Positions 9,796 to 50,319 of a DNA stretch of 64,000 nt are shown here, piece by piece. A model generated the notes under the pieces. That model was not told where the DNA came from. It was given only the letters and a program-made list of their open reading frames with translations, and ran no database searches. This DNA is from Myxococcales bacterium (lineage in GTDB: Bacteria; Myxococcota; Myxococcia; Myxococcales; Anaeromyxobacteraceae). The DNA is taken from positions 73,764-137,763 of the forward strand of contig JAJZQX010000012.1 in NCBI GenBank assembly GCA_021806645.1, read 5' to 3'. Every line of letters starts with the position of its first letter. Within the stretch, counting starts at the first letter, position 1. Both the position numbers and the translations under genes were made by a program.

Positions 9796-12700
9796 ATGAC
9801 GCTCAGGACCTCCGTCTGCGCACTAGTTGCGTCTCTCTTCGCCTTTGCCCCGTCGGCCGCCCAGGCCGCCTGGGTGGCCTCGCTGTCGGTCGGCGCCGGT
9901 GACTGCGCCACGGTGCCGGGGACCTGCTCCGGCATCGCGCCGGGCAGCGCGGTGACGGTGACCTGCACCGCCAGTCAAGGCAGCTCGATGTATACCGCCA
10001 CGCTGGTCTCGCTCGACGTGACGGCCTCGGCCGGCGCGCTCGGTGCGCCGGTGTTCACCAACGGCAACCCGGCCTCGACCGTCGTGACCTGGACCGCGCC
10101 CGCCTCGGGCAGCGCCACCATCACCTGCCGCGGCGTGGACAAGGTCGCCAACACCACCACCGCCACGGTGAGCGCCCAGGTCGCCGCGGCCGCGGCCGGC
10201 AAGCCTGTCATCTCCGCCTTCACCCGGCCCACCGGGCCGGTCGTCGAGGGCGCGGCGGTTCCACTGTCGGTCACTGCGACCGATCCGGCCGGCGGCACGC
10301 TCAGCTACGCCTGGACCGCCACCGGCGGCACCTTCGACGCGACCAGCGCCGCCGCCGTGACCTGGACCGCCCCGGCCACCGAGGGCTCGGTGGACGTGAC
10401 CGTGGCGGTTTCCAGCGCCACCGGGACCACCACCCGCGTCGAGAACTTCCGGGTGGTCATCTCGGTCTTCCAGGGCGATCTCGCCACCCGGCCGCGGGCG
10501 CCGAACCGCCTGGCGGCGGCCGGTGGCGGCGACATCGCCGTGTCCGACGCCGAGGGGAAGCTCTACCTGTTCACGCGCCGCGGCGAGCTGCGCGGCGCCC
10601 CGGCCGTGGACGCGCCCATCGCGTCGGTGGCCGCCGGCGACGGCACGGTCTTCGCCGCCACCCGCACCGGCGTCATCCTCACCATCGACGCCACCACCGG
10701 CCGCGTGCTGCGCCGCCTGCGGCTCGGCACGGCGTCCGGCCCGATCGCCATGGCCTGGGACTCGGCCCATGGCCTGCTCTGGGTGGTCGAGCAGGGGATG
10801 CCCGGCGCGCGCGCCCTGCTCTCCAATGGCACCGTGGCGCGCGAGATCCGGCAGACGCCGGCCGGCCTGCCGCTCGACTTCGCCGCCGACGTGGCGGTGG
10901 ACGGCGCCGGCAACGTCTGGATCGCCCAGGCGTCCATGGACACCGGTCCGATGGTCCACGCCTTCGACGCCGCCACCGGCGCCTGGGTCCGCTCCATCGT
11001 CAGCAGCGGGAGCGGCCCCGGCCAGGTGCGGCGGGTGGGCGGCCTCGGCTTCGACGCGGCCGGACGGCTCTTCGTCTCCGACGCCTTCAACGGCAACGTC
11101 AAGGTGATGAGCCCGGACGGCACGCCGCTCGGCACGCTCGGCTCCTTCGGCGGCGGCCCCGGCCAGCTCCGCCAGCCGGCCGGCCTCGCGCCCATGGCCA
11201 ACGGTGACGTGCTGGTGGCCAACTTCGACGTGGGCCGGCTCGATCGCTTCGGCGCCGGCCTGCCGCTCCCCACCTGCACGGTGAAGGGGCTGCTCGACAG
11301 CGACTGCGACGGCATGTCCGACGAGTGGGAGCTGGCCCACGGCCTCGACCCGCTCGACCCGTCCGACGCCATGCTCGACGCCGACGGCGACGGCCTCGCC
11401 AACCTCGAGGAGTACGCCCACGGCACCGACCCGGGGAAGGCCGACACCGACGGTGACGGTCTCGCCGACGGTGCCGAGGTCCTGGCCGGCACCAATCCGC
11501 TCAACCCGAGCGACGGCGTGGCCGGCTTGATGGCGGCCGGCCCGGCCGGCGCGGTCCGGCCCGGCGAGATCCACCTCTCCGCCACCGTGTCCGGCCCCGG
11601 CGCCTGCACCCTGGGCTGGAAGCAGGTGGGCGGGCCCCCGGTCGTGCTCCGCGCCACCACCTCGCTGACGCCGTCGTTCATCGCGCGGGCCGCCGCCGTC
11701 TACACGTTCGAGGGGCAGGCCCGGTGCGGCAGCTCGGTGAGCACCCCGTCCCGGGTCGCGATCACCGTCCTCAACGTGGCCCCACGGGCCGCCGCCGACC
11801 GGATGGCGGTGGTGGCCGCGGGCGACCGGCTCGAGCTCTCGGCCGCCGCCTCCAGCGACGCCAACGGCGACGCGCTCCGCTTCGCCTGGGAGGTGGACCA
11901 GTCGCCGGTGGGCGCCAGGGCGGCCATCGCGCCGCGCTCCGCCGAGCTCGGGCTCGGCTACCACCCGTTCCGCGCGGTGGTTCGCGACGCCGCCGGCGCC
12001 GCCGACGCCGTCGAGGTGCCGGTCATGGTGGTGGACGAGCGGCTGGTGGCCCCGACCGCCATCGTGGACGCCTCGGTGCTGGCCGGCGAGGTCGGCCAGC
12101 CGGTGCAGCTGAGCGCGGCCGCCAGCATTGGCCCGGCCATCCGCTGGGAGCAGGAGAGCGGCCCGGCCGCCGCGCTCTCGGATCCCGCCGGCGCCATGCC
12201 CACCTTCCTGCCCCCGGTCGCCGGCCGCTACGTCTTCGCCGCCTACGCGGTGGACGGGCTGGTCTGGTCCGCCCCGGCCCGCGTCGAGGTCTACGTGGCC
12301 GGCGGCGGCACCGCCCTGCCGCAGGCCGCGGTCGCCCCGCTCGCCGCCACCGTCCCCGTCAACACCGCCATCGTGCTCGACGGCTCCGGCAGCCTGGCCG
12401 GCGCCGGTGGCGCCATCACCTGGGCCTGGAAGCAGGTGGCCGGCCCGGCCGCCGCCATCGTGGACGAGGACCGGCCGCTGGCCACCGCGGTCGCCTTCGT
12501 GCCCGGCTGGTACCAGTTCGAGCTGACGGTCAACGAGGCGGGGGTCTCCTCGCTGCCGGTCCGGATCGGCTTCGAGGCCCGTGTCGAGGGCGCGCCCATC
12601 CCGGTGGCCAGGGCGGCCGGCCCGGCCGGCGCCGTCACCGGCGAGCTGGTCCGGCTCGACGGCCGCGCCTCCACCGGCGCCCGCCGCTACCACTGGACGC

Positions 12701-12861
12701 AGGTGGCCGGCCCGTGGGTCGCACTGAAGGCGAGCCAGCAGGCGCCCACCTTCGTGCCCCTGGCCGAGGGGAGCTATCGCTTCGAACTGGAGGTGGACGA
12801 CGGCACGGTGCGCAGCCGCCCGGCCTCGGTCACCGTCCTCGTCAACGGGAAGGGGAACTAG
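9796..12861 (+). CDS. Secreted multidomain protein: Ig-like domains, an NHL-repeat beta-propeller, thrombospondin type-3 (Ca-binding) repeats and four PKD-like domains
   Basis: Signal peptide MTLRTSVCALVASLFAFAPSAAQA. NHL-like blades (VWIAQAS.., RLFVSDAFNGNVKVMSPDGT, GDVLVANFDVGRLDRF). TSP3 repeats (DSDCDGMSDEWE, DADGDGLANLEE, DTDGDGLADGAE). Repeated motifs such as LDGSGS...ITWAWKQVAGPAA. Confidence 0.8.
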   Translation: MTLRTSVCALVASLFAFAPSAAQAAWVASLSVGAGDCATVPGTCSGIAPGSAVTVTCTASQGSSMYTATLVSLDVTASAGALGAPVFTNGNPASTVVTWTAPASGSATITCRGVDKVANTTTATVSAQVAAAAAGKPVISAFTRPTGPVVEGAAVPLSVTATDPAGGTLSYAWTATGGTFDATSAAAVTWTAPATEGSVDVTVAVSSATGTTTRVENFRVVISVFQGDLATRPRAPNRLAAAGGGDIAVSDAEGKLYLFTRRGELRGAPAVDAPIASVAAGDGTVFAATRTGVILTIDATTGRVLRRLRLGTASGPIAMAWDSAHGLLWVVEQGMPGARALLSNGTVAREIRQTPAGLPLDFAADVAVDGAGNVWIAQASMDTGPMVHAFDAATGAWVRSIVSSGSGPGQVRRVGGLGFDAAGRLFVSDAFNGNVKVMSPDGTPLGTLGSFGGGPGQLRQPAGLAPMANGDVLVANFDVGRLDRFGAGLPLPTCTVKGLLDSDCDGMSDEWELAHGLDPLDPSDAMLDADGDGLANLEEYAHGTDPGKADTDGDGLADGAEVLAGTNPLNPSDGVAGLMAAGPAGAVRPGEIHLSATVSGPGACTLGWKQVGGPPVVLRATTSLTPSFIARAAAVYTFEGQARCGSSVSTPSRVAITVLNVAPRAAADRMAVVAAGDRLELSAAASSDANGDALRFAWEVDQSPVGARAAIAPRSAELGLGYHPFRAVVRDAAGAADAVEVPVMVVDERLVAPTAIVDASVLAGEVGQPVQLSAAASIGPAIRWEQESGPAAALSDPAGAMPTFLPPVAGRYVFAAYAVDGLVWSAPARVEVYVAGGGTALPQAAVAPLAATVPVNTAIVLDGSGSLAGAGGAITWAWKQVAGPAAAIVDEDRPLATAVAFVPGWYQFELTVNEAGVSSLPVRIGFEARVEGAPIPVARAAGPAGAVTGELVRLDGRASTGARRYHWTQVAGPWVALKASQQAPTFVPLAEGSYRFELEVDDGTVRSRPASVTVLVNGKGN

Positions 12862-12863
12862 CG

Positions 12864-13976
12864 ATGCGTACCCGCTGGCTCGGAATCCTCGCGGTCCTCT
12901 CCACCGTCGTCCCGGTGGCGGCGCTGGGCGTGGACGCCCCGCACGACGGCTCGGCCACCGTCGGCACCTGCGAGAACTGCCACATGATCCACAACGCGCT
13001 GGGCGGCACGCTGATCAACGCGCCGGACAACAACACCGCCTGCTCGTCGTGCCACAACCCCTTGTCCACCACCCCCAGCGGGGCCCGGCTCGGCCTCCCG
13101 TGGCTCACCGAGGACCAGGCGTTCCCGGGCAAGAGCGGCCAGCAGCACCGCTGGGACGCGCTGGCCGATTCGCCGGCGTTCGGCGCGGCGCAGCCCACCG
13201 ACTCCGGGATGCTGAAGCGGATCAAGGACGGCCGGATCCAGTGCGCCGCCTGCCACGACCCGCACGCCGACGTGAAGGCGTTCGACCCGACCGCGCTGCA
13301 CACCTCGATCGCGCCCGGCGTCGCCACGGCCGTGACCGGTGGCACCACCACCATGACCATGACGCTGACGGCGCCCGCCGCCGCCGCCGTGACCAGGGGG
13401 TACCGGGTCCAGGTGGAAGGCATCTCGGGCGCCCAGTTCCGGCTCGCTATCAGCCACAACGCCAAGACCACCGACGGCGCGCCGATCTGGTGGGTCAACA
13501 ACGGGACCAGCTGGGTTCAAGGTGCGCTCGGAACCGGCACGCAGCTCTGGTCCACCGGCGCGGCCATCGCGCTCGACGACGGGACCAGCGTGCAGGTGAC
13601 CTTCACCGGCACCGCCGCCGTCGGCCAGTTCTGGGACTTCTACGTCTCCTACGCCCACCTGCGGGCCAGCAACGTGGCCGACGCCATGTGCCTGCAGTGC
13701 CACGCCTCGCGCAACCAGACCCACGTCACGGTCGAGGGGCCGGGGAACGGCGTGACCATCTTCAGCCACCCGGTCGGCGAGGCGCTCAACGCCAACGGCA
13801 AGGGGTACGACCGGGCCGCCGCCAACGTGCTCGACGCCAACGGCGCGCTCCAGGCCACCGGCGACGGCAACCCCACCAACGATCTCACGCTGGACGGCGG
13901 CACCACGGTCCGCTGCACCACCTGCCACAACGTCCACAACGCCGACTCCAACTCACTCACCACCGATGCTCGGTAG
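12864..13976 (+). CDS. Pentahaem c-type cytochrome with an OmcS-like N-terminus and an inserted non-haem domain
   Basis: Signal peptide MRTRWLGILAVLSTVVPVAALG. Five CXXCH motifs: CENCH, CSSCH, CAACH, CLQCH, CTTCH. First motif is HDGSATVGTCENCHMIHNALGGTLIN. About 140 aa between haem motifs 3 and 4 contain no Cys. Confidence 0.85.
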   Translation: MRTRWLGILAVLSTVVPVAALGVDAPHDGSATVGTCENCHMIHNALGGTLINAPDNNTACSSCHNPLSTTPSGARLGLPWLTEDQAFPGKSGQQHRWDALADSPAFGAAQPTDSGMLKRIKDGRIQCAACHDPHADVKAFDPTALHTSIAPGVATAVTGGTTTMTMTLTAPAAAAVTRGYRVQVEGISGAQFRLAISHNAKTTDGAPIWWVNNGTSWVQGALGTGTQLWSTGAAIALDDGTSVQVTFTGTAAVGQFWDFYVSYAHLRASNVADAMCLQCHASRNQTHVTVEGPGNGVTIFSHPVGEALNANGKGYDRAAANVLDANGALQATGDGNPTNDLTLDGGTTVRCTTCHNVHNADSNSLTTDAR

Positions 13977-14040
13977 CCCCGGGGCGCACGTGAAGACCAC
14001 TCAGCGCAGCTCCCGCATGGTGAACGACATGGCCGCAAGG

Positions 14041-17000
14041 ATGAACTCCGTGAAGACCCTGGCTCGCGCCGTTGCCGCGGTCGCCGTCGCGTTGCTCGCG
14101 GTGCAGGCGGGGCCGGCGGGGGCGGCCGGCACAGCCGGCAAGAGCTACAACATCTCCTGCGACACCGGCACGACCGCCAACGTGTCGCTCTACAACATCA
14201 CCACGGGCACCCAGTTCAAGGTGCGCTGCAAGATCATCGACCAGGCGACTGGTGCGGGGATTACCGGACTCGTCAGCGGTGACATCACCATCAGGCAGAT
14301 CACGGACGTCACCACCAACACCGCGCTCACCAGCGGCACCGACTACACCGCCGGCAACCTCGTGGAGGTTGGAAGTGGCGTTTACGATTTCTTGCTGACC
14401 ATCAGTTCGGGCGTTGCCACGGGTGACATCCTTGAGATCCAGATGCGCGAGGACGGTGGCAATGAGGTCGACACGGAGCGCCTCTTCGTCACCCAGTATG
14501 TACGCGTTGCAACTGCTGGCGTCGCTGGAAACGCCCGCTACATCGAAGTCCAGCCGACGACCAACGCTGACATCAACACGGCGGCGGGGACCTACACAGT
14601 GCGGGTTCGCTTCATCGATGCGCTGGGCAACTACTTCAATCCCGGCACCTTGACCTGGAGCATCAATCGATGGCGCGACAGCACCGGCGCCACCATCACC
14701 ACCGGCACCCCTTCGGCTGCAGCCTACGACACCACCAACAACTGGTACCTGCTCAGCATCCCCTACAGCACGGCACTGACCAACGGCGACCGACAGTACA
14801 TCAACATCGGCGCCAGGATCGGTAACTACCGGTACCTGGCCGGTTTCGGTCTGACCGCGGTCACCGCCCAGACCAATACGCCGCTCGCCGTGCCAACCTT
14901 CACGACGCCTGGCCTATTTGCTCCGGCCAACACCACCACGGTCGGCAACGGCACCGATCCGGCCGGTGGCACGGTCGGCCCCGGGGGCGCGGCCACCATG
15001 GTGGACGCCTTCACGCTGCAGACCAGCGCCGGCACCGACACGATCACGGCGGCCAGCGTGACGCTCTCGACCGTGAGCGGCGTCGGCCTGGTCGAGATCA
15101 CCAACGACGCCGGCACGACCGTCTACGGTTCGACCAGCAACCCCGCGGCCACGCCGGTCGCCGTTTCGCTCACCACCAGCATCTCCGCCACCACCACGCT
15201 GACGCAGTACAGGGTCCGCGTCACGCCGCTGGCGCATGCCGCCATGCCGGCGGTGCCGGGCGGGACCTACGCGGTGACGGCCACGGTGACCGGGCTCACC
15301 TCGACCAACGGCAAGACCTACGCCGACAGCGGCAGCGGCACGCTCACCATCGACAACCTCTCCCCGGGCGACGTGACCGGCCTCTCGGCCACGCCCGGCA
15401 ATACGCAGCTGGTGGTCAACTGGACCAACCCGGCCACCGACTACGCGCGGACCATGGTCCTGTATCGCGCCACCACCGCCATCAGCGACGTGCCCGGCGA
15501 GGGAGCGACCTACACCGCCCCGGGCACGCTCGGAGCGAGCACCATCGCCTACGTGGGCGGCACGGCCGGCGCGGCCGGCACCACCACCATCACCGGCCTG
15601 ACCAACGGCACGCTCTACAACTTGAAGGTCTTCGTCCAGGATGCCTATGGCAACTGGTCCACGCCGGGCGCCACCACCTCGGGCACGCCGACCGCCCCCG
15701 CCAACACCACCACGGTCGGCAACGGCACCGATCCGGCCGGTGGCACGGTCGGCCCCGGGGGCGCGGCCACCATGGTGGACGCGTTCACGCTGCAGACCAG
15801 CGCCGGCACCGACGCGATCACGGCGGCCAGCGTGACGCTCTCCACCGTGAGCGGCGTCGGCCTCGTCGAGATCACCAACGACGCCGGCACGACCGTCTAC
15901 GGTTCGACCAGCAACCCGGCGGCCACGCCGGTCGCCGTGACGCTCACCACCAACATCTCCGCCACCACCACGCTGACGCAGTACAGGGTCCGCGTCACAC
16001 CCCTGTCGCACGCCGCCATGCCGGCTGTGCCGGGCGGGACGTACGCGGTGACGGCCACGGTGACGGGGCTCACCTCGACCAACGGCAAGACCTACAGCGA
16101 CACGGGAAGCGGCACGCTCACCATCGACAACCTCTCCCCGGGCGACGTGACCGGCCTCTCGGCCACGCCCGGCAATACGCAGCTGGTGGTCAACTGGACC
16201 AACCCGGCCACCGACTACGCGCGGACCATGGTCCTGTATCGCGCCACCACCGCAATCAGCGACGTGCCCGGCGAGGGGGCGACCTACACCGCCCCGGGCA
16301 CGCTCGGAGCGAGCACCATCGCCTACGTGGGCGGCACGGCCGGCGCGGCCGGCACCACCACCATCACCGGCCTGACCAACGGCACCCTCTACAACGTGAA
16401 GGTCTTCGTCCAGGATGCCTATGGCAACTGGTCCACGCCGGGCGCCACCACCTCGGGCACGCCCGCCGTCCCGGTCATCAGCCTGGCCGTCGGCAACGGC
16501 ACCAACCCGGCCAACACGGCGCTGCTCTGCCCGTCGCCGACCGCGCCGACCGGCCCCACCATGCTCGACGCCTTCACGCTGCAGGCCCTGGTGGCCGACG
16601 ACGTGGTGACCCGCATCACGGTCCAGCTCGCCCCGGCGGGCGCCTGGATCAACGTGGCCACCGTGGAAATCACAGACGCCGCGGGCGGCACCACGGTCTA
16701 CGGCAGCGCCATCCCCGGCGGCGACCAGGTCAACGTCTACGTCACCGGCATCGCCCCGACCGTGGCCGCCGGCGCGGTCAGCTACAACGTCCGGATCACC
16801 CCCAAGACCCACGCGGCCATGCCGGCCCCCAACACCGGCCAGCAGTACGCCACCACCGGCACCGTGGTCTCGGTCGCCTCCAACAACCCGCGCACCTACG
16901 GCGACGCCTCCAGCGCCACCGTCACCATCGACAACCTGGCGCCGTCAGAGGTGGTCTGGTCCGGGGTCACCACCGGCGCCACCAACATCCAGCTCAACTG

Positions 17001-20571: not shown

Positions 20572-20592
20572 CCGCACCGAGAGCGTCGGGGT

Positions 20593-22715: not shown

Positions 22716-22728
22716 GCGCCGGGCTTCC

Positions 22729-24168: not shown

Positions 24169-24221
24169 CTGGTTTTCCACGCCGGATTGGCGAAGCAGCT
24201 CCGCGCGGATAGTATTGCCAC

Positions 24222-33626: not shown

Positions 33627-33806
33627 CGGGCTCGAAGTGTATCACCAGGGTGGGCGGCTGTAGTCTTGACGGTAAGCAACCAGTTGCTCGATGTAGGCCT
33701 AAGCACGGCGTTCTCCACCTGCCGCCGGGATGCCCCGGGCGGGCCGGGCGTGGTAAAGTGATCATCCCCGGTCGAACGGGGTCCGTTACTTCAGGAGAGC
33801 CCGAAG

Positions 33807-35321: not shown

Positions 35322-35324
35322 CGC

Positions 35325-39364: not shown

Positions 39365-39481
39365 GGAAGCTGCGATTCCGAGGGCGGATCCGGACTTGCG
39401 GCGGGCCGAACCATAGCCCAAGGCGGGCGCTGCGTGAACGAGGCGGCGGCCCGGCGACCCGGCGGGTCGCCGGCGCGGCGG

Positions 39482-40651: not shown

Positions 40652-40688
40652 TGAACCTCGGCGACGAGAGACGAAGCCCGCGCTCCCG

Positions 40689-42590: not shown

Positions 42591-43603
42591 GGCCTGTCTC
42601 CAGTGAACCTGTACGTTTCGACGCGGCGGTGCTGGCCGTCGGCTACCACCAGCAGGTCGCCGGCGATGGCCACCCCGGCCGGCATGGACAGCTGGCCCGG
42701 GCCGTCACCGATCCCCCCGGCGGCATAGATGAACCTGCCGTCAGCCTCGAACGCCAGCACCAGGCCGCGCTGCGTGTCGGTCACGTAGATCCGGCCAGCG
42801 GCGTCCACCGCCACGGCCTTGGGGCGGGAGAACCGGCCGCCGTCGTCGCCGGCCTCGCCGAAGCTGGAGAGCAGGGTGCCGTCCGGCCCGAACCGCTTCA
42901 CCTTGTAGTTGAGGGCGTCGATCACCAGCAGCGTGCCGTCGGGGGCCGCCGCCAGGCCGGTGGGGAAGTTGAAGCCGGCGTCGCCGTCGCCGCGGGCTCC
43001 GAAGCGCAGGACCTCCGCGCCCGAGGCGTCGTAGGCCACCACCTGGTGGCGCGGGGGGTCGGCGACGTAGAGCCGCTCGCCGAGGAGGGCCAGGGCGGTG
43101 GGACGCTCCAGCGTGCCGCTGCCCCAGCGGTCGCAGCGGCCGTCGGGCGCGATCCGGACCACCACGGCGAGGCCGGCGTCGGCCACGTAGACGACGCCGC
43201 CGGGGCCGATGGTCACGGCCATGGGCGCGCCCCACTCTCCGTCGCGGCAGCGGACCGGCTCGAAGGCCCCGCTGGCCAGGTCGGCGCGGAGCACGCCCGG
43301 TGCGTCGGGATCGGCCACGTAGACCGCGCCGGGGAGGGCCGCCACGCCGAAGGGACGGACCAGCACCGGCTCGCCGGCGCCCGGCTCGAGGCCCAGGATG
43401 GCGTCCACGACGCGGCGGAAGCCGGAGCGCTGGTCGGGCCGATCCGGGTCCGGGAGCGAGCGTTCGAAGATCAGGCGGGCGGCGGCCGGCGGCCGGGGCC
43501 AGGCCGGAGGGGGCCCGGGCGCGACGCGCGGGGTCGTGGTGCCGGCGCAGGCGGTCGCCCACAGGGCGAAGGCGATGACGGCCGGGAGGAGGGGTGCGCG
43601 CAT
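42587..43603 (-). CDS. NHL-repeat six-bladed beta-propeller lipoprotein
   Basis: Lipobox LWATAC. Blades such as AVYVADPDAPGVLRADL, VVYVADAGLAVVVRI, RLYVADPPRHQVVAYD, TLLVIDALNYKVKRF, RIYVTDTQRGLVLAFE, DLLVVADGQHRRVETY. ATGA-type overlap with the downstream cytochrome gene. Confidence 0.8.
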   Translation of the reverse strand: MRAPLLPAVIAFALWATACAGTTTPRVAPGPPPAWPRPPAAARLIFERSLPDPDRPDQRSGFRRVVDAILGLEPGAGEPVLVRPFGVAALPGAVYVADPDAPGVLRADLASGAFEPVRCRDGEWGAPMAVTIGPGGVVYVADAGLAVVVRIAPDGRCDRWGSGTLERPTALALLGERLYVADPPRHQVVAYDASGAEVLRFGARGDGDAGFNFPTGLAAAPDGTLLVIDALNYKVKRFGPDGTLLSSFGEAGDDGGRFSRPKAVAVDAAGRIYVTDTQRGLVLAFEADGRFIYAAGGIGDGPGQLSMPAGVAIAGDLLVVADGQHRRVETYRFTGDRP

Positions 43604-43607
43604 GTGG

Positions 43608-45338: not shown

Positions 45339-47761
45339 GGCTTCGCTCCACCGCCGACGACCGTGATGGGCACGTCGACCACGTACTCGGCGTCGGCCGG
45401 GGGGAACAGCCAGGACGCCGAGCTGGCCTTGAGACAGGCCTCCAGCTCGTCGCCCCCGAGGTCGCCGTTGCCGACCTTGGTCCCGGTGACCTTGCCGGTC
45501 GGGGCGAGGTTGACCCGAAGCCTCCCCTCGGCGCCGGTCAGTCCCCGGCGCACCATCTGCTCCGAGACGCACCGCTCGATGGCCGGCTGGACCGCCACCA
45601 CCGCGTCGCGGAGCTGGCGCCTGGCGGTCTCGCCGCCCGCCAGCATGTCGCCGGCCGCCACCTCGCCGCCGCGGTCTCCGCGGGCCTGGCCGGCGGCGCG
45701 CAGCGCGGAGACCACCACGTCCACGCCTTGCGCGCCGGGCCGGGTGGTGATGCGCGTGACCACCTGCTTCGCCGGCAGCTTGCCGATGCCGACGACCAGG
45801 GCCTTCACCTCCTGGGCGCGCCGGTTGGCCTCGTTCATCAGGCCCGGCTCCCTGGCGCGGGCCCAGACCAGCACCTCGCAGTTCTCGCGGGCTGCCAGCC
45901 TGGCGATGCCGTCGATGGCCTCGCGGTCCAGCTCGGAGAGCGCGGAGGCCGGGGTGGCGAAGGTCACCACGGTGGCGGCGGCCACGACCTTCTCGACGGC
46001 GCCGCCGGGGTCGTACGTCTCGCGCCGGGCGTTGCCGGCGCCGGTCGCGGCGCCGCCCGCCTTCATGATCGCGGTGGGTGACTTGACGACCATGACGAAG
46101 ACCGACCTGTCCTTCGGGACCGGTGGGAGCGGCACGCCCGGCGCCGGCGCCCTGGTGGCGCCGCGCCGCTGCTCGGCGGCGCGCTGCTCGAGCAGGGTGA
46201 GCCGCTCGGCGCGGACGTCGAGGCGGCGCTGCCAGGTGTCGAGGCGCTGTGCGCGGGCATGGAGCTGGCGGGTGCTGGCGTCCACGCGCTCGCCGCGCGC
46301 GACCAGGCGGCTCTCCATGGCGGCCAGCATCCGCTGGCGCGCGGCCAGGGCCTTTCGGCGGAACTCGCCCTGGCGCGCCGGGGTCTTCTCGGCGCCGGCC
46401 TGGGCCAGCAGCCGCTCGGCCTCCTTCCGCTCGGCCTGTTCGCGGGCCTGGGCGTCACGCTCGGAGCCCAGCGCGGCCTCCCTGGTCGGGTTGAAGCCGC
46501 GCTCCTGGGCCGCCAGTTGCCGCTCGGCCGCGCCCAGCTCGGACTCCTGCGACTCGAGCTGGCGCTGCGGGCCGGTGGGGGCGCCGCGGACCACGATGCG
46601 CCGCTCGCGGGCCTCGAGCTGGGCCTCACGGGCCGCCAGCGCCCGCTCGCGCTCGTCGAGCTTGCGGGCGTCGGCGTCGAGGGTGGCCTCGTCGGCGTCG
46701 AGCGACTCCTCGGTGGCGCGGAGCCGCTTCAGCCGGGCCTCGGCCTGGAGTTCCTGGTCGCGAAGCTGGGCGGCGAGGACGTCGTCGGCGCTCGGGACGG
46801 GGACGCGTGGTGGCGCCGCCGCCAGCGAGCCGGCCTGCGCGGGCGGCGTGTACGGAGCGTACTGCCGGTGGCGAGGCTGGCCCAGTCGGCCCGGGTCGGC
46901 GCCGTGGATCCTGAGCCGGAACCGGGGGCGGTCGCCGAGGGCGAGGGACGGCGCGGCCTCCTCTTCGTCGGGCGGTGGCGCGACCGGCGCGGCGGCCGCC
47001 ACGGTGGCGCGGCGCTTCGGCACCCCATGGAACCCGAACCCGAGCGAGACCCGGACCCCCTGCTCGTCGGGGAGGTAGCTGGCGCCGAGCGACAGGCCGA
47101 CCCGCTCGGACAGGTCCCAGCGGATGGCGGCGCCAAGCAGGCTGCCCCGCGGGTTGCGGACCGCCTCGATCACCGCTTCCAGCCCGCTCCGGTGCCGGAG
47201 CTGGGCGGCCAGGCCGGCGGTCGGGCCGGCGGGGCCGGCGGCCTGCTTCTCGTAACCGGCGAAGCCGGCCAGCTTGAGGAGGCCCACCTGCGCGGTGGAG
47301 AGGATGAGGCGGCCGCCGCCGGCGCCGTTGTCGTTGAAGCGATCGAGGTAGCCGTCCACGGCCAGCCCGGGGCGCCAGCCAGAGGCGGCGACGAGGCCGG
47401 CCTTGAGGGCGGCGCCGAAGAGCATGGGGGCCGGGCGGGGATCGCCGGGGAAGCCGGACTCGCGCGCCGACACGCCCAGCTCCAGGCGGCCCAGGCCGAC
47501 GCCGAGTGAAAGAGGCAAGGGGCCGACGCGGTCCGTGGAGCCGGCGGCGTGGTCCCAGCCGAGCTCGAAGCCCAGCATGGCCGTCGAGGGTTCGATCACC
47601 TCGGCGGAGGGCACGTCGAGGAGGCCCGCCTCGCCCTGCCGGGTCGGGAAGTGGCCGGCCAGCGCCGCTTGCGGCGCCACCAGCAAGGCGAGGACGACGA
47701 GAGGTCCAGCGGTCGGGAGGCGGCTCAACTCACGCCCTCCCGTCGCCGCCACGCTCGCCAT
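45335..47761 (-). CDS. Large envelope protein: N-terminal barrel-like domain, long Glu/Arg/Ala coiled coil, OmpA-like region and an AgmX/PglI-type C-terminal domain
   Basis: Signal LVVLALLVAPQAALAG. Coiled-coil repeats (EARLKRLRATEESLDADEATLDADARKLDERERALAAREAQLEARERR...). C-terminus ...VQPAIERCVSEQM...GKVTGTKV...LEACLKASSASWLFPP. Confidence 0.65.
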   Translation of the reverse strand: MASVAATGGRELSRLPTAGPLVVLALLVAPQAALAGHFPTRQGEAGLLDVPSAEVIEPSTAMLGFELGWDHAAGSTDRVGPLPLSLGVGLGRLELGVSARESGFPGDPRPAPMLFGAALKAGLVAASGWRPGLAVDGYLDRFNDNGAGGGRLILSTAQVGLLKLAGFAGYEKQAAGPAGPTAGLAAQLRHRSGLEAVIEAVRNPRGSLLGAAIRWDLSERVGLSLGASYLPDEQGVRVSLGFGFHGVPKRRATVAAAAPVAPPPDEEEAAPSLALGDRPRFRLRIHGADPGRLGQPRHRQYAPYTPPAQAGSLAAAPPRVPVPSADDVLAAQLRDQELQAEARLKRLRATEESLDADEATLDADARKLDERERALAAREAQLEARERRIVVRGAPTGPQRQLESQESELGAAERQLAAQERGFNPTREAALGSERDAQAREQAERKEAERLLAQAGAEKTPARQGEFRRKALAARQRMLAAMESRLVARGERVDASTRQLHARAQRLDTWQRRLDVRAERLTLLEQRAAEQRRGATRAPAPGVPLPPVPKDRSVFVMVVKSPTAIMKAGGAATGAGNARRETYDPGGAVEKVVAAATVVTFATPASALSELDREAIDGIARLAARENCEVLVWARAREPGLMNEANRRAQEVKALVVGIGKLPAKQVVTRITTRPGAQGVDVVVSALRAAGQARGDRGGEVAAGDMLAGGETARRQLRDAVVAVQPAIERCVSEQMVRRGLTGAEGRLRVNLAPTGKVTGTKVGNGDLGGDELEACLKASSASWLFPPADAEYVVDVPITVVGGGAKP

Positions 47762-48170
47762 CGCTGGCGGCGCCGCGGGTGAGGCCGAACTGGTTGAGGG
47801 TCCGTTCGACCGACCGGACGCTCACGGCGTGGCCGAGCCGAAGGAGGTCGCCGGCGATCAGCGCGGCGCTGCGGTTGGGCTCGTGGAGGCGGGCCCGGAC
47901 GATGAACCGGACCACCTCGAGCGGACGGCGCCAGGCCGTCCGCGGGCCGGGTGGGCGCGAGAAGAGCCCTTCGAGCCCCTCTTCGCGGAACCGGCGGAGC
48001 TTTTCGTAGTAGGTGCTGCGGGACCGCCCGAACTCGGAGAGGACCTCGTCAAGCGGCCGCCCGCTCGTCTCCCCTTCCATGAGCATGAGGAGATCCGACC
48101 CGGCCTCGTCGTCGCGACGGAGCGGGAGCAGTCCCCCGGGACCTCGAATGGCGTGGAGTTCGGTCTTCAC
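47730..48170 (-). CDS. Helix-turn-helix protein resembling the N-terminal DNA-binding domain of IS481/IS630-type transposases. No catalytic domain is present.
   Basis: LDEVLSEFGRSRSTYYEKLRRFREEGLEGL...AALIAGDLLRLGHAVSVRSVERTL. It overlaps the start of the next gene by 32 nt. Confidence 0.55.
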   Translation of the reverse strand: MKTELHAIRGPGGLLPLRRDDEAGSDLLMLMEGETSGRPLDEVLSEFGRSRSTYYEKLRRFREEGLEGLFSRPPGPRTAWRRPLEVVRFIVRARLHEPNRSAALIAGDLLRLGHAVSVRSVERTLNQFGLTRGAASDGERGGDGRA

Positions 48171-48229
48171 GGTCAGGACAGAGGGGTTGGGGTGGGGCGA
48201 CGATATCCAGCGGATTGTGGCGGGCGCTG

Positions 48230-48271
48230 GAGCGGAAAGAAGCGCGGGGCGCCGGTTGCACGCCCCGCGCT
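48230..48271 (-). terminator. Intrinsic terminator downstream of the tetrahaem cytochrome gene
   Basis: Perfect 10-bp GC stem (GCGCGGGGCG, 48242-48251, pairing with CGCCCCGCGC, 48261-48270), 9-nt loop, followed on the minus strand by TTCTTTCC. Confidence 0.6.
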
Positions 48272-48281
48272 CGGGTGCCGC

Positions 48282-49046
48282 CTACTTGATGTGGCAGCCG
48301 CCGCAGCGGCCGTTGGTGACCGAGGTCGGGACGCGGAGGAAGAACGGGTTCGCGCTGGCCACGTTCTCGGTGTGGGGCTCGTGGCAGGTGCCGCACTCCA
48401 CCTGGAAGGCTCCGCCGGAATTGGCGAAGAGCTTCAGGTAGGCGCCGCCTGCCGACGCGCCGGACACGCACTCCGGGATGCCGGCCTGACAGCCGGCGGC
48501 GGTGGCCGTGCCGTACTGCGCGGTGACGGCGCTGGAGCCGACTTGCCCGGCGAAGGGGATGCCGACCGGGTGCTGGCCGTTGAGGTTGGTGTACGCGAGG
48601 TTGCTGGCGAGGAAAACGTTGCCGCCTGACACGGTCACGTTGCCGGTCGCGGTCGCGCTGATGGTGGCGGCGACCTGCGTGTAGGTGCCGAACTTGTTGA
48701 CGGTGGTGTTCATGGCCACCGAACCGTCATGGCAGGAGAGGCACTTCTGCGAGGCGGAGCCGAGGGCGGCGTTGGTGGCCGGAAGCGGCGTGCCGTTCGC
48801 GGTTGCGGTCGGAGACGTGAAGCCGGTCCCGGTCGGCGCCGGGCGGGCCCAGAGCGTGCCCTGGGTGGTGTTGGCGTTGTGCGGCATGTGGCAGAAGCGG
48901 CACATGTCCACGCCGGCGTCGGTGAAGTAGACGTTGCCCTGAGTGTTGGTCGAGGTCAGGTTGTGCTTGGTGTTGGAGATGGCGGCGGTGGCCATGGTCG
49001 GGATGGCGAGGGCCACCACGAAGAGGACCTTGAGAGCGTTGCGCAT
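48282..49046 (-). CDS. Small (254 aa) tetrahaem c-type cytochrome, OmcE/OmcS-like candidate filament subunit
   Basis: Signal MRNALKVLFVVALAIPTMATA. Four CXXCH motifs: CRFCH, CLSCH, CGTCH, CGGCH. Exactly 8 His in the mature part. First motif SNTKHNLTS...CRFCHMPHNA. The last motif sits at the extreme C-terminus (RCGGCHIK*). The protein is T/A/G/N-rich. Confidence 0.85.
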   Translation of the reverse strand: MRNALKVLFVVALAIPTMATAAISNTKHNLTSTNTQGNVYFTDAGVDMCRFCHMPHNANTTQGTLWARPAPTGTGFTSPTATANGTPLPATNAALGSASQKCLSCHDGSVAMNTTVNKFGTYTQVAATISATATGNVTVSGGNVFLASNLAYTNLNGQHPVGIPFAGQVGSSAVTAQYGTATAAGCQAGIPECVSGASAGGAYLKLFANSGGAFQVECGTCHEPHTENVASANPFFLRVPTSVTNGRCGGCHIK

Positions 49047-49170
49047 GAGAGACTTCCTCCGTTGTTCGGGGTGATCCCCGGCTGACCGGGCCGGGAGGCG
49101 ATGGACTCCCGCCCGGACCGTTGATTCGTGGGCGCCATGCTGGCCGCGCTGTCGGTGATGGCCTGGACCT

Positions 49171-49187
49171 TAGCAACCCCGATGCCA
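49171..49187 (-). promoter_or_regulatory. Sigma54 (-24/-12) promoter candidate for the tetrahaem cytochrome gene
   Basis: The minus strand reads TGGCAT-CGGGG-TTGCTA, with consensus spacing for TGGCAC-N5-TTGCW. The predicted leader is ~115 nt and ends in GGAGGAAG before the ATG. Confidence 0.6.
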
Positions 49188-49287
49188 GCCTTGCCGCGCG
49201 AAACTCCTCGGCTTTTCGCTTCCCGCCGGCGACCCGATTGGGCTCGAACACCCATCGATGGGGCATCTGCCCCACGCGAAGAGGACG

Positions 49288-50319
49288 CTATTGCTGGGCC
49301 GGGACCTCGACGAACTCGTAGACGTTGATGCGGGGCAACTGGGCGCTCTGCTCCCCGACGAAGATCCGCTTCCCGTCCGGGTGGATGGCGATGGGGCCCG
49401 GCATGTCGAGGTACTCGAGCATGTTGACCTTGCCGCCGAAGTACATCAGCAGCTGGTTCTTCTGGTTGAACATCTGGACGGTCGCGGTCTCGCCGTCCAC
49501 GACGTAGAGGATGCCGCGCGGGTCCACGGCCACGCCCTTGGGCCGGGCGAACTGCCCCGGGCCGATGCCGGACTCGCCGAAGAAGCGGATCAGGCCGCCT
49601 TCCGGGTCGAAGACCTGGATCCTGAAGTTGAGCATGTCCGAGACGTAGAGGTTGCCGTCCTTGTCGAGCGCCAGGTAGCCGGGGAAGTTGAACTGGCCTG
49701 GCGCGGTGCCGCGCGCGCCGATGGTCCGCAGCAGCTTCCCGGCCGTGCTGTACACCAGCACCCGGTGGTTCTGCGACTCGGGGAAGGAGCCGTCGGTCAC
49801 GTAGACCAGCTGCCGCTTGCGATCGAGGGCCAGGGCCGTGGGGCGCTCGGCGTCGCCGCCGAACTCGCGGAGGAACCGGCCGTCTGTGGAGAAGACCCGG
49901 ACCCGCCGCGCCGGGGGCTCGGAGACGTAGACGTTCCCCTCCTGGTCCACCGCCACGCCGAACGGCTGCATCATGCCGAAGTCGGGGGCGAAGCGATCGG
50001 CCCGGCCCTGGGCGAAGTCGAAGCGGACCACCTGGCCTCGCGGCTGGTCGGTCACGTAGAGGAGCTGCCCGTCCGGCGAGAAGGCGAAGCCGGAGGGCTG
50101 CTCGAAGGTGATGGGCTGGGTGCCGAGCAGGGCGCGCTGGAAGCCGCCCCAGCCGGTCTTCTCGATGTCGGCCCCCGAGGTGATGGCCTGTACGAAGCGG
50201 ATCCGGGCCGGGTCCGGGGGTGGGGGCCAGCGGACCTTGGCGCCCTTGAGCGGGGCCACCGCGCAGGCCGAGGCGATGAGCATCAGGGAGACGGCGGTGA
50301 GGCGCAGATCACGCGGCAT
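49288..50319 (-). CDS. NHL-repeat six-bladed beta-propeller lipoprotein (paralog of 42587..43603)
   Basis: Lipobox LIASAC. Blades LLYVTDQPRGQVVRFDF, NVYVSEPPARRVRVFS, LVYVTDGS...HRVLVYS, NLYVSDMLNFRIQVFD, ILYVVDGETATVQMFN. It shares the N-terminal WPPPP..ARIRF motif with the other NHL lipoprotein. Confidence 0.85.
   Translation of the reverse strand: MPRDLRLTAVSLMLIASACAVAPLKGAKVRWPPPPDPARIRFVQAITSGADIEKTGWGGFQRALLGTQPITFEQPSGFAFSPDGQLLYVTDQPRGQVVRFDFAQGRADRFAPDFGMMQPFGVAVDQEGNVYVSEPPARRVRVFSTDGRFLREFGGDAERPTALALDRKRQLVYVTDGSFPESQNHRVLVYSTAGKLLRTIGARGTAPGQFNFPGYLALDKDGNLYVSDMLNFRIQVFDPEGGLIRFFGESGIGPGQFARPKGVAVDPRGILYVVDGETATVQMFNQKNQLLMYFGGKVNMLEYLDMPGPIAIHPDGKRIFVGEQSAQLPRINVYEFVEVPAQQ

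What the first reader, a model, noticed from the sequence alone, without database searches (positions are those of the whole stretch)
9796..50319. The pairing of an NHL beta-propeller with a CxxCHxxH-first cytochrome recurs three times in one window
Three independent loci place an NHL propeller immediately upstream of a cytochrome whose first haem motif is CxxCHxxH(N/G):
- 9796-12861 followed by 12864-13976 (CENCHMIHNA);
- 42587-43603 followed by 40689-42590 (CVFCHVPHGG; the genes overlap);
- 49288-50319 followed by 48282-49046 (CRFCHMPHNA).

The two NHL lipoproteins also share an N-terminal WP(P)PP..ARI.F motif. Tight or overlapping junctions suggest stoichiometric co-production. This argues that the NHL propeller is a dedicated partner (chaperone, polymerisation or anchoring factor, or haem/metal handling) for this cytochrome class. 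As far as I know, that function has not been established.
Basis: inference. Interest (0 to 1): 0.75.

Follow-up and report, generated by a model that had tools for sequence, protein, structure and literature searches.

The report
Propeller lipoproteins paired with nanowire-type cytochromes
The window holds an OmcE-type "cytochrome nanowire" gene cluster in which each exported cytochrome gene follows its own six-bladed propeller lipoprotein gene; this pairing occurs in many bacterial phyla and is already described, but what the propeller does has not been tested.

Summary
All three gene pairs are at the stated coordinates, and only these 3 of the window's 7 multihaem cytochromes start with CxxCHxxH.

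Pairs 2 and 3 are not independent. They lie in one minus-strand cluster (53698..35788):
- a 17-haem DmsE-like cytochrome and a SurA-like PPIase;
- an NHL lipoprotein followed by an OmcE homologue;
- an 808-aa protein and a 28-strand beta-barrel;
- a second NHL lipoprotein followed by an 11-haem cytochrome;
- glycosyltransferases and a TPR protein.

This matches the published minimal omcE nanowire cluster and resembles the uet cluster.

Comparative evidence:
- In 80 loci from more than 10 phyla, 123 of 131 NHL-family genes had a multihaem cytochrome immediately downstream, and 102 of those start with CxxCHxxH.
- Each NHL paralogue co-varies with its own cytochrome more than with the other one.
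- Seeding from the cytochrome instead, 38 of 47 metagenome loci had an NHL gene within 3.5 kb.

The "dedicated partner" idea is therefore supported by comparative genomics. The association itself is already in the literature (omcE clusters, UetH/I, osc, Desulfovibrio ferrophilus). Function is untested. My best guess is a cytochrome-specific docking or chaperone factor next to the secretion barrel. This is a new member of a known kind, of moderate interest.

The parts
51992..53698 (-). 17-haem periplasmic-type cytochrome, DmsE/MtrA-like; first gene of cluster B
   Evidence: 17 CxxCH motifs; the first is CSSCHAAVAA, not CxxCHxxH. TIGR03508 DmsE family, 177 bits, below the cut-off of 192. Syntenic in L001-L005, L007 and L055.
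50343..51953 (-). SurA-like peptidyl-prolyl isomerase with two PPIC domains
   Evidence: Pfam Rotamase_2 E 2e-23, Rotamase E 9e-16, SurA_N weak. Corresponds in kind to UetB and OscH.
49288..50319 (-). NHL3: six-bladed NHL beta-propeller lipoprotein, upstream of the OmcE-like cytochrome
   Evidence: Pfam NHL E 2e-24. Invariant lipobox Cys19 and WPxxP..R motif. AF2 pLDDT 91, six blades closed by the N-terminal strand 40-46. Best fold matches are TRIM2/3/71 NHL domains.
48282..49046 (-). OmcE-homologous tetrahaem cytochrome (candidate filament subunit)
   Evidence: Full-length match to the OmcE filament 7tfs_A (E 6e-18) and to D. soudanensis OmcE 9yuq_N (E 1e-14). Exactly 8 His for 4 haems. The CxxCHxPH His is invariant across phyla.
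45335..47761 (-). 808-aa envelope protein: beta-rich N-terminus, coiled coil, weak AgmX/PglI-type C-terminal domain
   Evidence: No Pfam hit. NF033768, 28.8 bits, below cut-off. Syntenic only in Anaeromyxobacteraceae-type loci.
43608..45338 (-). 576-aa outer-membrane beta-barrel with 28 predicted strands
   Evidence: AF2 on alignment A3: pLDDT 82, 28 long antiparallel strands. Best fold hit is MtrB, 6r2q_B, E 4e-10. UetC was also predicted to have 28 strands.
42587..43603 (-). NHL2: second NHL beta-propeller lipoprotein, upstream of the 11-haem cytochrome
   Evidence: Pfam NHL E 6.5e-19. 34% identical to NHL3, with the same lipobox and WPxxP..R motif. NHL2-like ORFs precede 11-haem cytochromes in 22 of 26 cases.
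40689..42590 (-). 11-haem (plus one CxxxCH) cytochrome with an OmcE-like N-terminal part; UetJ-like
   Evidence: Residues 57-189 match OmcE 7tfs_A, E 4e-12. 11 CxxCH motifs, the first CVFCHVPHGG. Orthologues follow NHL genes in 42 loci.
35788..40753 (-). GT4 glycosyltransferase (39482-40753), GT2 (38657-39481) and TPR protein (35788-38700) downstream of cluster B
   Evidence: Pfam. Matches the glycosylation and TPR extension described for omcE clusters.
53985..56881 (+). Divergent HAMP histidine kinase (with one CxxCH in its predicted periplasmic loop) and a sigma-54 response regulator
   Evidence: Pfam. CNRCH at ORF residue 156.
9796..12861 (+). NHL1: 1021-aa secreted protein made of Ig/PKD repeats, an NHL propeller (about residues 290-545) and TSP3 repeats; not a lipoprotein
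   Evidence: Pfam PKD and TSP3 strong, NHL weak. No WPxxP motif. The same architecture lies upstream of 5-haem homologues at 45% identity and in L004.
12864..13976 (+). 5-haem cytochrome of an uncharacterised family with an OmcS-like N-terminal stretch
   Evidence: CENCHMIHNALGG here against CEGCHTMHNSLGG in OmcS 6ef8. No significant overall PDB match. 10 invariant His, but His43 is not invariant.
13966..22715 (+). 2201-aa cytochrome (18 CxxCH motifs, plus one CxxxCH and one CxxxxCH) followed by ResB-like and CcsA haem-attachment genes
   Evidence: A giant cytochrome also follows the 5-haem gene in the P0214 contigs.

Best explanation
Identity. The window comes from an Anaeromyxobacteraceae-like metagenome genome and carries two operons for exported multihaem cytochromes.
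- Cluster B (53698..35788, minus strand) is a member of the omcE-type cytochrome-nanowire / uet-type cluster. It encodes a periplasmic DmsE-like 17-haem cytochrome, a SurA-like PPIase, a 28-strand outer-membrane barrel, an OmcE-homologous tetrahaem subunit, an 11-haem extracellular cytochrome, and two paralogous NHL six-bladed propeller lipoproteins. Each lipoprotein gene sits directly upstream of one of the two exported cytochromes.
- Locus A (9796-22715, plus strand) is a related but distinct triad. It encodes a large secreted NHL/PKD/TSP3 protein, a 5-haem cytochrome with an OmcS-like N-terminus, and a giant cytochrome, followed by ResB/CcsA.

Shown here: the homologies, the architecture, the conservation of the NHL-cytochrome gene pairs across more than 10 phyla, and the pair-specific co-variation.

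The haem motif. In the OmcE-like family the CxxCHxPH second His is one of exactly eight invariant His for four haems, so it is a haem ligand. This assumes bis-His ligation as in OmcE. In OmcS and OmcE one haem is ligated by a His of the neighbouring subunit (literature).

Inferred mechanism. Each NHL lipoprotein is held on a short tether of about 11 residues plus a Pro-rich stretch, at the membrane next to the barrel. There it acts as a cytochrome-specific docking or holding factor. It binds its cognate cytochrome after haem attachment and PPIase-assisted folding, keeps the polymerisation interface unreacted, and hands the cytochrome to the barrel for export. This is analogous to the chaperone of a chaperone-usher pathway.
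For: Homology and architecture:
- OmcE homology.
- Eight-His budget and invariant CxxCHxPH.
- NHL fold and velcro closure by the conserved N-terminal strand.
- 28-strand barrel with MtrB as best fold match.
- PPIase, glycosyltransferases, TPR protein.
- The published minimal omcE cluster has two multihaem cytochromes, two beta-propeller lipoproteins, OmcE and a large beta-barrel, often followed by GT2/GT4/TPR genes: bioRxiv 10.1101/2025.10.22.684050.
- uetA-J has a 4-haem cytochrome, a PPIase, a 28-strand barrel, two NHL proteins and an 11-haem cytochrome.

Pairing:
- At least 592 loci in GTDB species genomes.
- Among the 80 kept, 123 of 131 evaluable NHL ORFs have a multihaem cytochrome immediately downstream on the same strand, and 102 of those start with CxxCHxxH (49 four-haem, 42 eleven-haem).
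- Odds ratio 12.5 and p 1e-20 against the other cytochromes in the same loci.

Specificity:
- The nearest NHL from another locus has the same partner class in 95 of 98 cases.
- Mirror-tree test in 30 loci holding both pairs. The NHL upstream of the 4-haem gene (NHL_A) correlates with the 4-haem cytochrome at 0.61, against 0.26 for the NHL upstream of the 11-haem gene (NHL_B). NHL_B correlates with the 11-haem cytochrome at 0.44, against 0.22 for NHL_A. The bootstrap differences exclude zero.

Literature:
- An inter-subunit His ligates a haem in OmcS and OmcE: PMC9473688, PMC7096707.
- Deleting the NHL gene Gmet_0556 is reported to impair Fe(III) oxide reduction (cited).
Against: - No physical interaction was tested or predicted; no multimer prediction tool was available.
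- Co-variation of adjacent genes can come from shared inheritance or transfer of a two-gene unit, without any contact between the proteins.
- In Planctomycetota-type loci a larger NHL protein lies downstream of the 4-haem gene and upstream of a 5-haem cytochrome that lacks the motif.
- 9 of 47 cytochrome-seeded loci lack an NHL gene within 3.5 kb.
- Published cryo-EM filaments contain only the cytochrome. That is neutral between the chaperone and anchor models.
- The membrane and the side of it that the lipoprotein faces are unknown.
- Filament formation by the window's OmcE homologue is not shown.
Confidence: 0.55

Rival explanations
1. Anchor or base-plate model. The NHL lipoproteins are structural subunits of the outer-membrane conduit. 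Each tethers its cytochrome, which has no lipid anchor, or the base of its filament, to the cell surface or to the barrel. They would not act as transient chaperones.
For: - The OmcE-like and 11-haem proteins have ordinary signal peptides without a lipobox, whereas the NHL proteins have an invariant lipobox Cys.
- NHL domains are binding scaffolds.
- The 11-haem gene is typically translationally coupled to its NHL gene, with a median junction of -4 nt, which suits a stoichiometric complex.
- Deng et al. proposed that such propellers stabilise the outer-membrane cytochrome complex (PMC5815863).
- Pair-specific co-variation fits this model as well.
Against: - The 4-haem gene is usually uncoupled from its NHL gene (241 nt here).
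- No extra density for a propeller has been reported on sheared OmcE filaments, although a base would be lost on shearing.
- Surface exposure of the lipoprotein is not shown.
Confidence: 0.25
2. Operon passenger model. The NHL proteins serve another component, for example assembly or gating of the 28-strand barrel in the manner of BamB, or general envelope organisation. Their adjacency to the cytochrome genes would only reflect inheritance of a conserved cluster.
For: - Tight junctions occur throughout the operon, not only at NHL-cytochrome borders.
- The whole cluster is syntenic in relatives.
- 9 of 47 OmcE-like loci have no nearby NHL gene.
Against: - The gene order NHL then cytochrome persists across more than 10 phyla while the rest of the cluster varies.
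- There are two NHL paralogues for two exported cytochromes but only one barrel.
- Each NHL co-varies with its own cytochrome much more than with the other cytochrome of the same locus. Shared cluster history alone does not predict that.
Confidence: 0.1
3. Enzyme or cofactor-handling model. The propeller modifies the cytochrome, for example through glycan, lyase or lactonase chemistry, or it handles haem or metal.
For: - Weak Pfam matches to SGL/lactonase, arylesterase and Vgb lyase families.
- PAL is a distant fold match at rank 36.
- Glycosyltransferase genes lie downstream.
- His185, Lys261 and Asp266 are invariant.
Against: - The best fold matches are non-catalytic TRIM/Brat NHL binding domains, with TM 0.84-0.86 on the target.
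- The protein has no CxxCH motif and no known metal-site motif.
- Most invariant residues are Gly, Pro, Asp or Asn of the NHL repeat itself.
- Minimal omcE clusters lack glycosylation genes but keep the propellers.
Confidence: 0.05

Closest known systems
omcE nanowire gene cluster of Desulfuromonadia (Geobacter sulfurreducens OmcE, PDB 7TFS; Desulfuromonas soudanensis OmcE, PDB 9YUQ; bioRxiv 10.1101/2025.10.22.684050)
   Same: - OmcE-homologous tetrahaem subunit with the 8 conserved His.
- Two beta-propeller lipoproteins, a large beta-barrel and two further multihaem cytochromes.
- Followed by GT2/GT4 glycosyltransferases, a TPR protein and regulators.
   Different: - The host is Myxococcota (Anaeromyxobacteraceae-like), a phylum not among the five listed in that paper.
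- It has an extra 808-aa coiled-coil protein and a SurA-like PPIase.
- Identity to OmcE is low (alignment).
- Filament formation is not shown.
uetABCDEFGHIJ cluster of 'Ca. Tenderia electrophaga', also found in Gallionella (bioRxiv 10.1101/2022.05.06.490989; PMC10734462)
   Same: - Tetrahaem UetA, PPIase UetB and a 28-strand barrel UetC.
- Two NHL proteins, UetH and UetI, placed directly before the undecahaem UetJ.
- The window has the same kinds of parts, and its 11-haem gene directly follows an NHL gene.
   Different: - Cluster B has no trihaem c7 genes (UetD, E, G), and no cupredoxin (UetF) was found. Trihaem genes do occur in many of the related loci.
- The gene order differs.
- ccsAB genes are linked to locus A, not to cluster B.
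- Uet is proposed for electron uptake.
- No Tenderia sequences were available for direct comparison.
osc (omcS companion) cluster of G. sulfurreducens (Shen et al. 2025, Cell Chem Biol 32:239; seen only through PMC13194489) and the core operon of Skennerton et al. 2017 (PMC5539420)
   Same: - A dedicated set of a PPIase (OscH), channel-like proteins (OscEFG) and a further protein that affects filament morphology (OscD) accompanies a filament-forming cytochrome.
- The Skennerton core operon has a six-bladed propeller, two large cytochromes and a PPIase, and is reported in Anaeromyxobacter.
- The first haem motif of OmcS is also CxxCHxxHN.
   Different: - The window has no OmcS homologue: the 5-haem family profile scores E 0.63 against 6ef8.
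- The roles of the Osc proteins were taken from a secondary citation.
- Orthology of NHL2/NHL3 to any Osc protein was not tested.
Porin-cytochrome conduits (MtrCAB; Pcc of Geobacter)
   Same: - A large barrel whose best fold match is MtrB, plus a DmsE/MtrA-like periplasmic multihaem cytochrome and extracellular cytochromes.
   Different: - 28 strands rather than 26.
- The extracellular cytochromes are not lipoproteins.
- NHL lipoproteins and a PPIase are additional parts.
- The extracellular cytochrome is of the polymerising OmcE type.
NHL-repeat beta-propellers in the outer-membrane cytochrome clusters of Desulfovibrio ferrophilus (PMC5815863) and Gmet_0556 of G. metallireducens
   Same: - NHL propeller genes are co-located and co-expressed with extracellular cytochrome genes.
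- A role in stabilising the complex has been proposed.
- A deletion phenotype on Fe(III) oxide has been reported.
   Different: - Sequence relationship to the window's NHL proteins was not tested.
- Those reports do not describe one propeller gene per cytochrome gene.

Membership tests
omcE-type cytochrome nanowire gene cluster | Tetrahaem OmcE-homologous subunit with four CxxCH motifs and four further conserved His | tested here: met
   7tfs_A E 6e-18 and 9yuq_N E 1e-14, both full length. 8 His in total. 7 are invariant and the eighth is nearly invariant in a 12-sequence, multi-phylum alignment.
omcE-type cytochrome nanowire gene cluster | Two beta-propeller lipoproteins in the cluster | tested here: met
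   NHL2 and NHL3: Pfam NHL, invariant lipobox Cys, six-bladed AF2 model with pLDDT 91.
omcE-type cytochrome nanowire gene cluster | Large outer-membrane beta-barrel | tested here: met
   43608-45338: AF2 pLDDT 82, 28 strands. MtrB is the best fold hit. This is a prediction only.
omcE-type cytochrome nanowire gene cluster | Two additional multihaem cytochromes | tested here: met
   17-haem (51992-53698) and 11-haem (40689-42590) cytochromes.
omcE-type cytochrome nanowire gene cluster | The subunit polymerises into an extracellular filament with an inter-subunit His-haem bond | not testable with these tools
   Needs cryo-EM or biochemistry.
uet (undecahaem electron transfer) cluster | Undecahaem UetJ directly preceded by NHL genes, plus tetrahaem UetA, PPIase UetB and a 28-strand barrel UetC | tested here: met
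   11 CxxCH cytochrome after NHL2, 4-haem cytochrome, PPIase and 28-strand barrel, compared with the description. This is a match of kinds of parts; no Tenderia sequences were compared.
uet (undecahaem electron transfer) cluster | Trihaem c7-type cytochromes UetD/E/G and cupredoxin UetF | tested here: not met
   Cluster B has no 3-haem ORFs. The 808-aa and 576-aa proteins have no Pfam domain. Trihaem pairs are present in many related loci, such as L010, L013, L043 and L064-L068.
osc / OmcS nanowire system | OmcS-homologous hexahaem subunit | tested here: not met
   The 5-haem protein has no PDB hit. Its family profile scores E 0.63 against 6ef8. Only the N-terminal CExCHxxHNxLGG stretch resembles OmcS.
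NHL-repeat six-bladed beta-propeller (Pfam PF01436) | NHL repeats forming a six-bladed propeller | tested here: met
   Pfam E 2e-24 and 6.5e-19. Foldseek TM 0.84-0.86 (normalised on the target) to the TRIM2, TRIM3 and Thin NHL domains. For the 1021-aa protein only a weak NHL hit (E 3e-4) and cross-hits to the family.
MtrCAB-type porin-cytochrome conduit | 26-strand MtrB barrel enclosing a decahaem MtrA, with a lipoprotein decahaem MtrC outside | tested here: not met
   28 strands with low TM (0.44) to MtrB. The DmsE-family score of the 17-haem protein is below cut-off. The extracellular cytochromes have no lipobox.

The most novel reading that the evidence does not exclude
The WPxxP..R-motif NHL lipoproteins are subunit-specific periplasmic chaperones or adaptors of a chaperone-usher-like export pathway for polymerising and other extracellular multihaem cytochromes. 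There would be one propeller per exported cytochrome. The pathway would be present in more than 10 bacterial phyla, including Myxococcota, Acidobacteriota, Planctomycetota, Nitrospirota, Bacteroidota and Gemmatimonadota, well beyond the known electroactive groups. Finding the gene pair would then predict cytochrome-filament producers from sequence alone.
Probability: 0.3. Interest if true: 0.75.

Novelty: new member of a known kind. Interest (0 to 1): 0.4.

Why it matters
How cytochrome nanowires are exported and kept from polymerising inside the cell is an open question. For OmcE no biogenesis factor has been tested.

This window adds a Myxococcota example of the omcE/uet-type cluster. The comparative work adds three points that I did not find stated in the papers I could read:
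- The propeller-cytochrome gene pair is the most conserved unit of these clusters. It occurs in at least 592 loci of GTDB species genomes, and the 80 examined span more than 10 phyla.
- There is one propeller paralogue per exported cytochrome, and each co-varies with its own partner.
- The filament-type 4-haem gene is usually uncoupled from its propeller gene, whereas the 11-haem gene is translationally coupled to its propeller gene.

These points give a specific, testable hypothesis and a sequence marker for candidate nanowire producers. They do not establish a function.

Tried and rejected
- OmcS link for the 5-haem cytochrome. phmmer at E up to 10 and a 17-sequence profile against the PDB gave nothing significant. 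Only a local N-terminal resemblance to OmcS remains. I rejected calling the protein an OmcS homologue.
- CxxCHxxH as a universal ligand motif. This was rejected for the 5-haem family: His43 is Tyr or Val in many members, while 10 other His are invariant.
- Curated family names. No NCBIfam model reached its cut-off for any cluster protein. The 808-aa and 576-aa proteins have no Pfam hit.
- Deep split of NHL proteins by partner type. Average-linkage clustering on p-distances did not separate the 4-haem partners from the 11-haem partners. Only the nearest-neighbour and mirror-tree tests show specificity.
- Barrel in distant loci. A profile of the 576-aa barrel finds it only in Anaeromyxobacteraceae-type loci. 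I could not show by sequence that the 2-3 kb gaps in other phyla hold a homologous barrel.
- Shen et al. 2025 and Wang et al. 2019 could not be read. The Osc roles therefore come second-hand from PMC13194489. The statement that His16 of OmcS is the inter-subunit ligand rests on my memory. Only 'a His of the adjacent monomer ligates haem 5' is documented here.
- No multimer structure prediction is offered by the tools, so no interface was predicted.
- Chance as an explanation was rejected on the basis.

Full report
**1. Observation**

The six ORFs exist as described.
- Pair 1: 9796-12861(+) encodes a 1021-aa protein. It is followed after 2 nt by 12864-13976(+), a 5-haem cytochrome starting CENCHMIHNA.
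- Pair 2: 42587-43603(-) encodes a 338-aa protein whose stop overlaps (ATGA) the start of 40689-42590(-). That cytochrome has 11 CxxCH motifs plus one CxxxCH and starts CVFCHVPHGG.
- Pair 3: 49288-50319(-) encodes a 343-aa protein. It is followed after 241 nt by 48282-49046(-), a 4-haem cytochrome starting CRFCHMPHNA.

Pfam NHL is strong for the two small proteins. It is weak for the 1021-aa protein, which is mainly PKD and bacterial TSP3 repeats.

The window has four other multihaem cytochromes: 3483-4607, 13966-20571, 35322-35771 and 51992-53698. None starts with CxxCHxxH and none follows an NHL gene. Within the window this is only modest evidence: 3/3 against 0/4, p about 0.03, and CxxCHxxH makes up 22 of 68 haem motifs.

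**2. Gene map**

A GC3-guided ORF map and Pfam/NCBIfam scans show that pairs 2 and 3 belong to one minus-strand cluster, here called cluster B. In order it contains:
- a 17-haem DmsE-like cytochrome (53698..51992);
- a SurA-like PPIase (51953..50343);
- NHL3, then the 4-haem cytochrome;
- an 808-aa protein (47761..45335);
- a 576-aa protein (45338..43608);
- NHL2, then the 11-haem cytochrome;
- GT4, GT2 and TPR genes.

A histidine kinase and a sigma-54 regulator are transcribed divergently from the start of the cluster.

Junctions are tight along the second half of the cluster. The 808-aa and 576-aa genes overlap by 4 nt, and 4 nt separate the 576-aa gene from NHL2. Overlap is therefore not special to the NHL-cytochrome borders.

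Pair 1 heads a separate plus-strand operon, locus A. It continues with a 2201-aa cytochrome and with ResB-like and CcsA genes.

**3. What the parts are**

- The 4-haem protein is a full-length homologue of the OmcE filament subunit: 7tfs_A at E 6e-18, and D. soudanensis OmcE 9yuq_N at E 1e-14.
- It has exactly eight His for four haems. In a 12-sequence alignment spanning many phyla, seven of them, including the His of CxxCHxPH, are invariant and the eighth is nearly so. The second His of the motif is therefore a haem ligand in this family, assuming bis-His ligation as in OmcE.
- In OmcS and OmcE one haem is ligated by a His of the neighbouring subunit (PMC9473688; PMC7096707). Mature OmcS also begins ...CEGCHTMHN.
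- The N-terminal part of the 11-haem protein also matches OmcE (E 4e-12).
- NHL3, modelled with 21 homologues, is a confident six-bladed propeller (pLDDT 91). Its best structural matches are the TRIM2/3/71, Thin and Brat NHL binding domains. Enzymes such as PAL rank far lower.
The lipobox Cys, W, P, P and R are invariant. In the model, strand 40-46 (RIRFVQA) supplies the fourth strand of the last blade, which has only three C-terminal strands. The motif is therefore the 'velcro' closure, preceded by a Pro-rich tether about 11 residues after the lipid anchor.
- The 576-aa protein is predicted as a 28-strand beta-barrel (pLDDT 82), with MtrB as the best fold match.

**4. Comparison across genomes**

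At least 592 loci were confirmed. The 80 kept come from Myxococcota, Nitrospirota, Acidobacteriota, Planctomycetota, Burkholderiales, Thiodiazotropha, Kiloniellales, Bacteroidota, Ignavibacteriae, KSB1, Gemmatimonadota and candidate phyla.
- Of 143 NHL-family ORFs in these loci, 131 had enough downstream DNA to evaluate.
- 123 of the 131 had a multihaem cytochrome immediately downstream on the same strand.
- 102 of those 123 start with CxxCHxxH: 49 four-haem OmcE-like and 42 eleven-haem cytochromes, with the rest carrying other haem counts.
- Against the other cytochromes in the same loci the odds ratio is 12.5 and p is 1e-20.
- 120 of the 143 have such a cytochrome on one side or the other.
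- The WPxxP..R motif is present in 117 of the 143. It is absent from the larger Planctomycetota NHL proteins that precede 5-haem cytochromes, and from the window's 1021-aa protein.
- Close relatives (L001-L003, L005, L007, L055) share the whole order of cluster B.

*Scan seeded from the cytochrome.* I seeded metagenome contigs with OmcE-like sequences and kept the 47 loci with at least 1.2 kb of upstream DNA.
- 26 have an NHL gene immediately upstream.
- 4 have one immediately downstream.
- 8 have one elsewhere within 3.5 kb.
- 9 have none.

The pairing is therefore frequent but not obligatory.

*Caveats.* The samples are the top-scoring hits and are phylogenetically related. ORFs are stop-to-stop calls, not curated genes.

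**5. Specificity of the pairs**

- For 95 of 98 NHL ORFs, the most similar NHL from another locus has the same class of partner. This partly reflects orthology among related genomes.
- The mirror-tree test is stronger. In 30 loci that contain both pairs, I call the NHL upstream of the 4-haem gene NHL_A and the NHL upstream of the 11-haem gene NHL_B. The distance matrix of NHL_A correlates with that of the 4-haem cytochrome at Spearman 0.61. NHL_B correlates with the 4-haem cytochrome at only 0.26.
- For the 11-haem cytochrome the own-partner value (NHL_B) is 0.44 and the other-partner value (NHL_A) is 0.22.
- Bootstrap differences are 0.34 [0.13, 0.51] and 0.22 [0.06, 0.36]. Partial correlations are 0.65 against 0.06, and 0.52 against 0.24.
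- Shared history of the whole cluster does not predict this result. Either physical co-adaptation or inheritance of each pair as a unit does.
- Junctions differ by partner. NHL to 11-haem junctions are typically overlapping (median -4 nt). NHL to 4-haem junctions are spaced: median 74 nt to the first possible start, and 262 against 149 nt from the NHL stop to the first haem motif, p 1e-8. This argues against stoichiometric co-production for the filament-type subunit.

**6. Locus A**

The 5-haem cytochrome belongs to an uncharacterised family of about 350-390 aa.
- The family has ten invariant His. The His of the first CxxCHxxH is not one of them: it is Tyr or Val in many members.
- The family profile has no significant PDB match (OmcE E 0.042, OmcS E 0.63), even though the N-terminus resembles OmcS locally.
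- The triad of an NHL/PKD/TSP3 protein, the 5-haem cytochrome and a giant cytochrome, with overlapping junctions, recurs at 45% identity and next to a cluster-B-like region in L004.
- It is a real conserved operon but of a different kind. Its NHL protein is not a lipoprotein of the WPxxP family.

**7. Literature**

[quoted passage not shown] It adds that these are often followed by GT2/GT4/GT39, TPR and regulator genes, and it uses the barrel and the propeller lipoprotein as markers of true OmcE clusters. Cluster B matches this description item by item.
- The uet cluster of Tenderiales has the same kinds of parts, with the NHL genes uetH and uetI directly before the undecahaem uetJ and a 28-strand UetC. 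It is also reported in Gallionella.
- NHL propellers in cytochrome clusters were noted in D. ferrophilus.
- A core operon of a six-bladed propeller, two large cytochromes and a PPIase was described in Desulfuromonadales, SEEP-SRB1 and Anaeromyxobacter.
- For OmcS, the osc cluster is reported to provide folding (OscH), secretion (OscEFG) and morphology (OscD) functions. The primary paper could not be read.
- In what I could read, no function of the omcE- or uet-type propeller lipoproteins has been tested.

**8. Interpretation**

The identity of cluster B as an omcE/uet-type extracellular cytochrome system is well supported.

The mechanism I think most likely is inference only. Each lipoprotein would be a cytochrome-specific docking or holding factor next to the barrel, in a chaperone-usher-like export route. 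This would act after CcsBA-type haem attachment and PPIase-assisted folding.

The main rival is a permanent anchor or complex subunit. That model is favoured for the translationally coupled 11-haem pair. A passenger role or an enzymatic role is less likely.

**9. Verdict**

This is a new member of a known kind, of moderate interest. The value lies in the phyletic breadth, the one-propeller-per-cytochrome rule and the co-variation. Together these make the open question of OmcE-type nanowire biogenesis directly testable.

Noticed in passing
window 53985-55505 (+): The HAMP/HisKA histidine kinase transcribed divergently from cluster B has a single CxxCH (CNRCH, ORF residue 156) between its two predicted membrane segments. 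This suggests a haem-c periplasmic sensor domain that could put the cluster under redox control, together with the adjacent sigma-54 response regulator (55424-56881).
   Followed up: no
window 13966-20571 (+): A 2201-aa cytochrome. Its N-terminal 1200 residues or so are Ig/FN3-like and include two long near-identical repeats. Its C-terminal part has 18 CxxCH motifs plus one CxxxCH and one CxxxxCH. It is followed by ResB-like (20572-21894) and CcsA (21861-22715) haem-attachment genes and a PD40 propeller protein (22648-24075).
   Followed up: partly
window 45335-47761 (-): An 808-aa protein with a beta-rich N-terminus, a long Arg/Glu-rich coiled coil and a weak AgmX/PglI-type C-terminal domain. 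It overlaps the barrel gene by 4 nt. It was found only in Anaeromyxobacteraceae-type versions of the cluster (L002-L005, L007, L008, L055). Its role is unknown.
   Followed up: partly
window 33762-35771 (+): A B12-binding radical SAM gene (33762-35321) directly abuts a 150-codon ORF with four CxxCH motifs and a possible lipobox (35322-35771). A second B12-binding radical SAM gene lies at 28195-29745.
   Followed up: no
window 47730-48170 (-): A 146-aa ORF with a helix-turn-helix-like sequence lies in the 520-nt gap between the OmcE-like gene and the 808-aa gene. Relatives have a gap of similar size there (L002, L003). It may be a small regulator, an IS remnant or not a gene at all.
   Followed up: no
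L024, L035, L036, L049, L050, L071, L073, L079 (Planctomycetota loci): A variant layout. A 4-haem OmcE-like gene (CDGCHxPHNA) comes first. It is followed by a larger NHL protein (450-580 aa) without the WPxxP motif, then a 5-haem cytochrome. About 2 kb further on come a WPxxP NHL lipoprotein and an 11-haem cytochrome.
   Followed up: partly
L010, L013, L043, L064-L068, L070 and other loci: Many Proteobacteria-type loci place two small trihaem genes (CxNCHPAIF and CxVCHxK types) right after the 4-haem gene, as with uetD/E/G. The window's cluster B lacks them.
   Followed up: no
window 6289-9404 (+): A histidine kinase and LuxR/GerE-type response regulator pair lies just upstream of locus A. A HisKA_3 kinase and GerE regulator pair lies upstream of the homologous triad, along with a Cache/GAF hybrid kinase and a small ORF, in the P0214 contig. 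This suggests a conserved dedicated regulator.
   Followed up: partly
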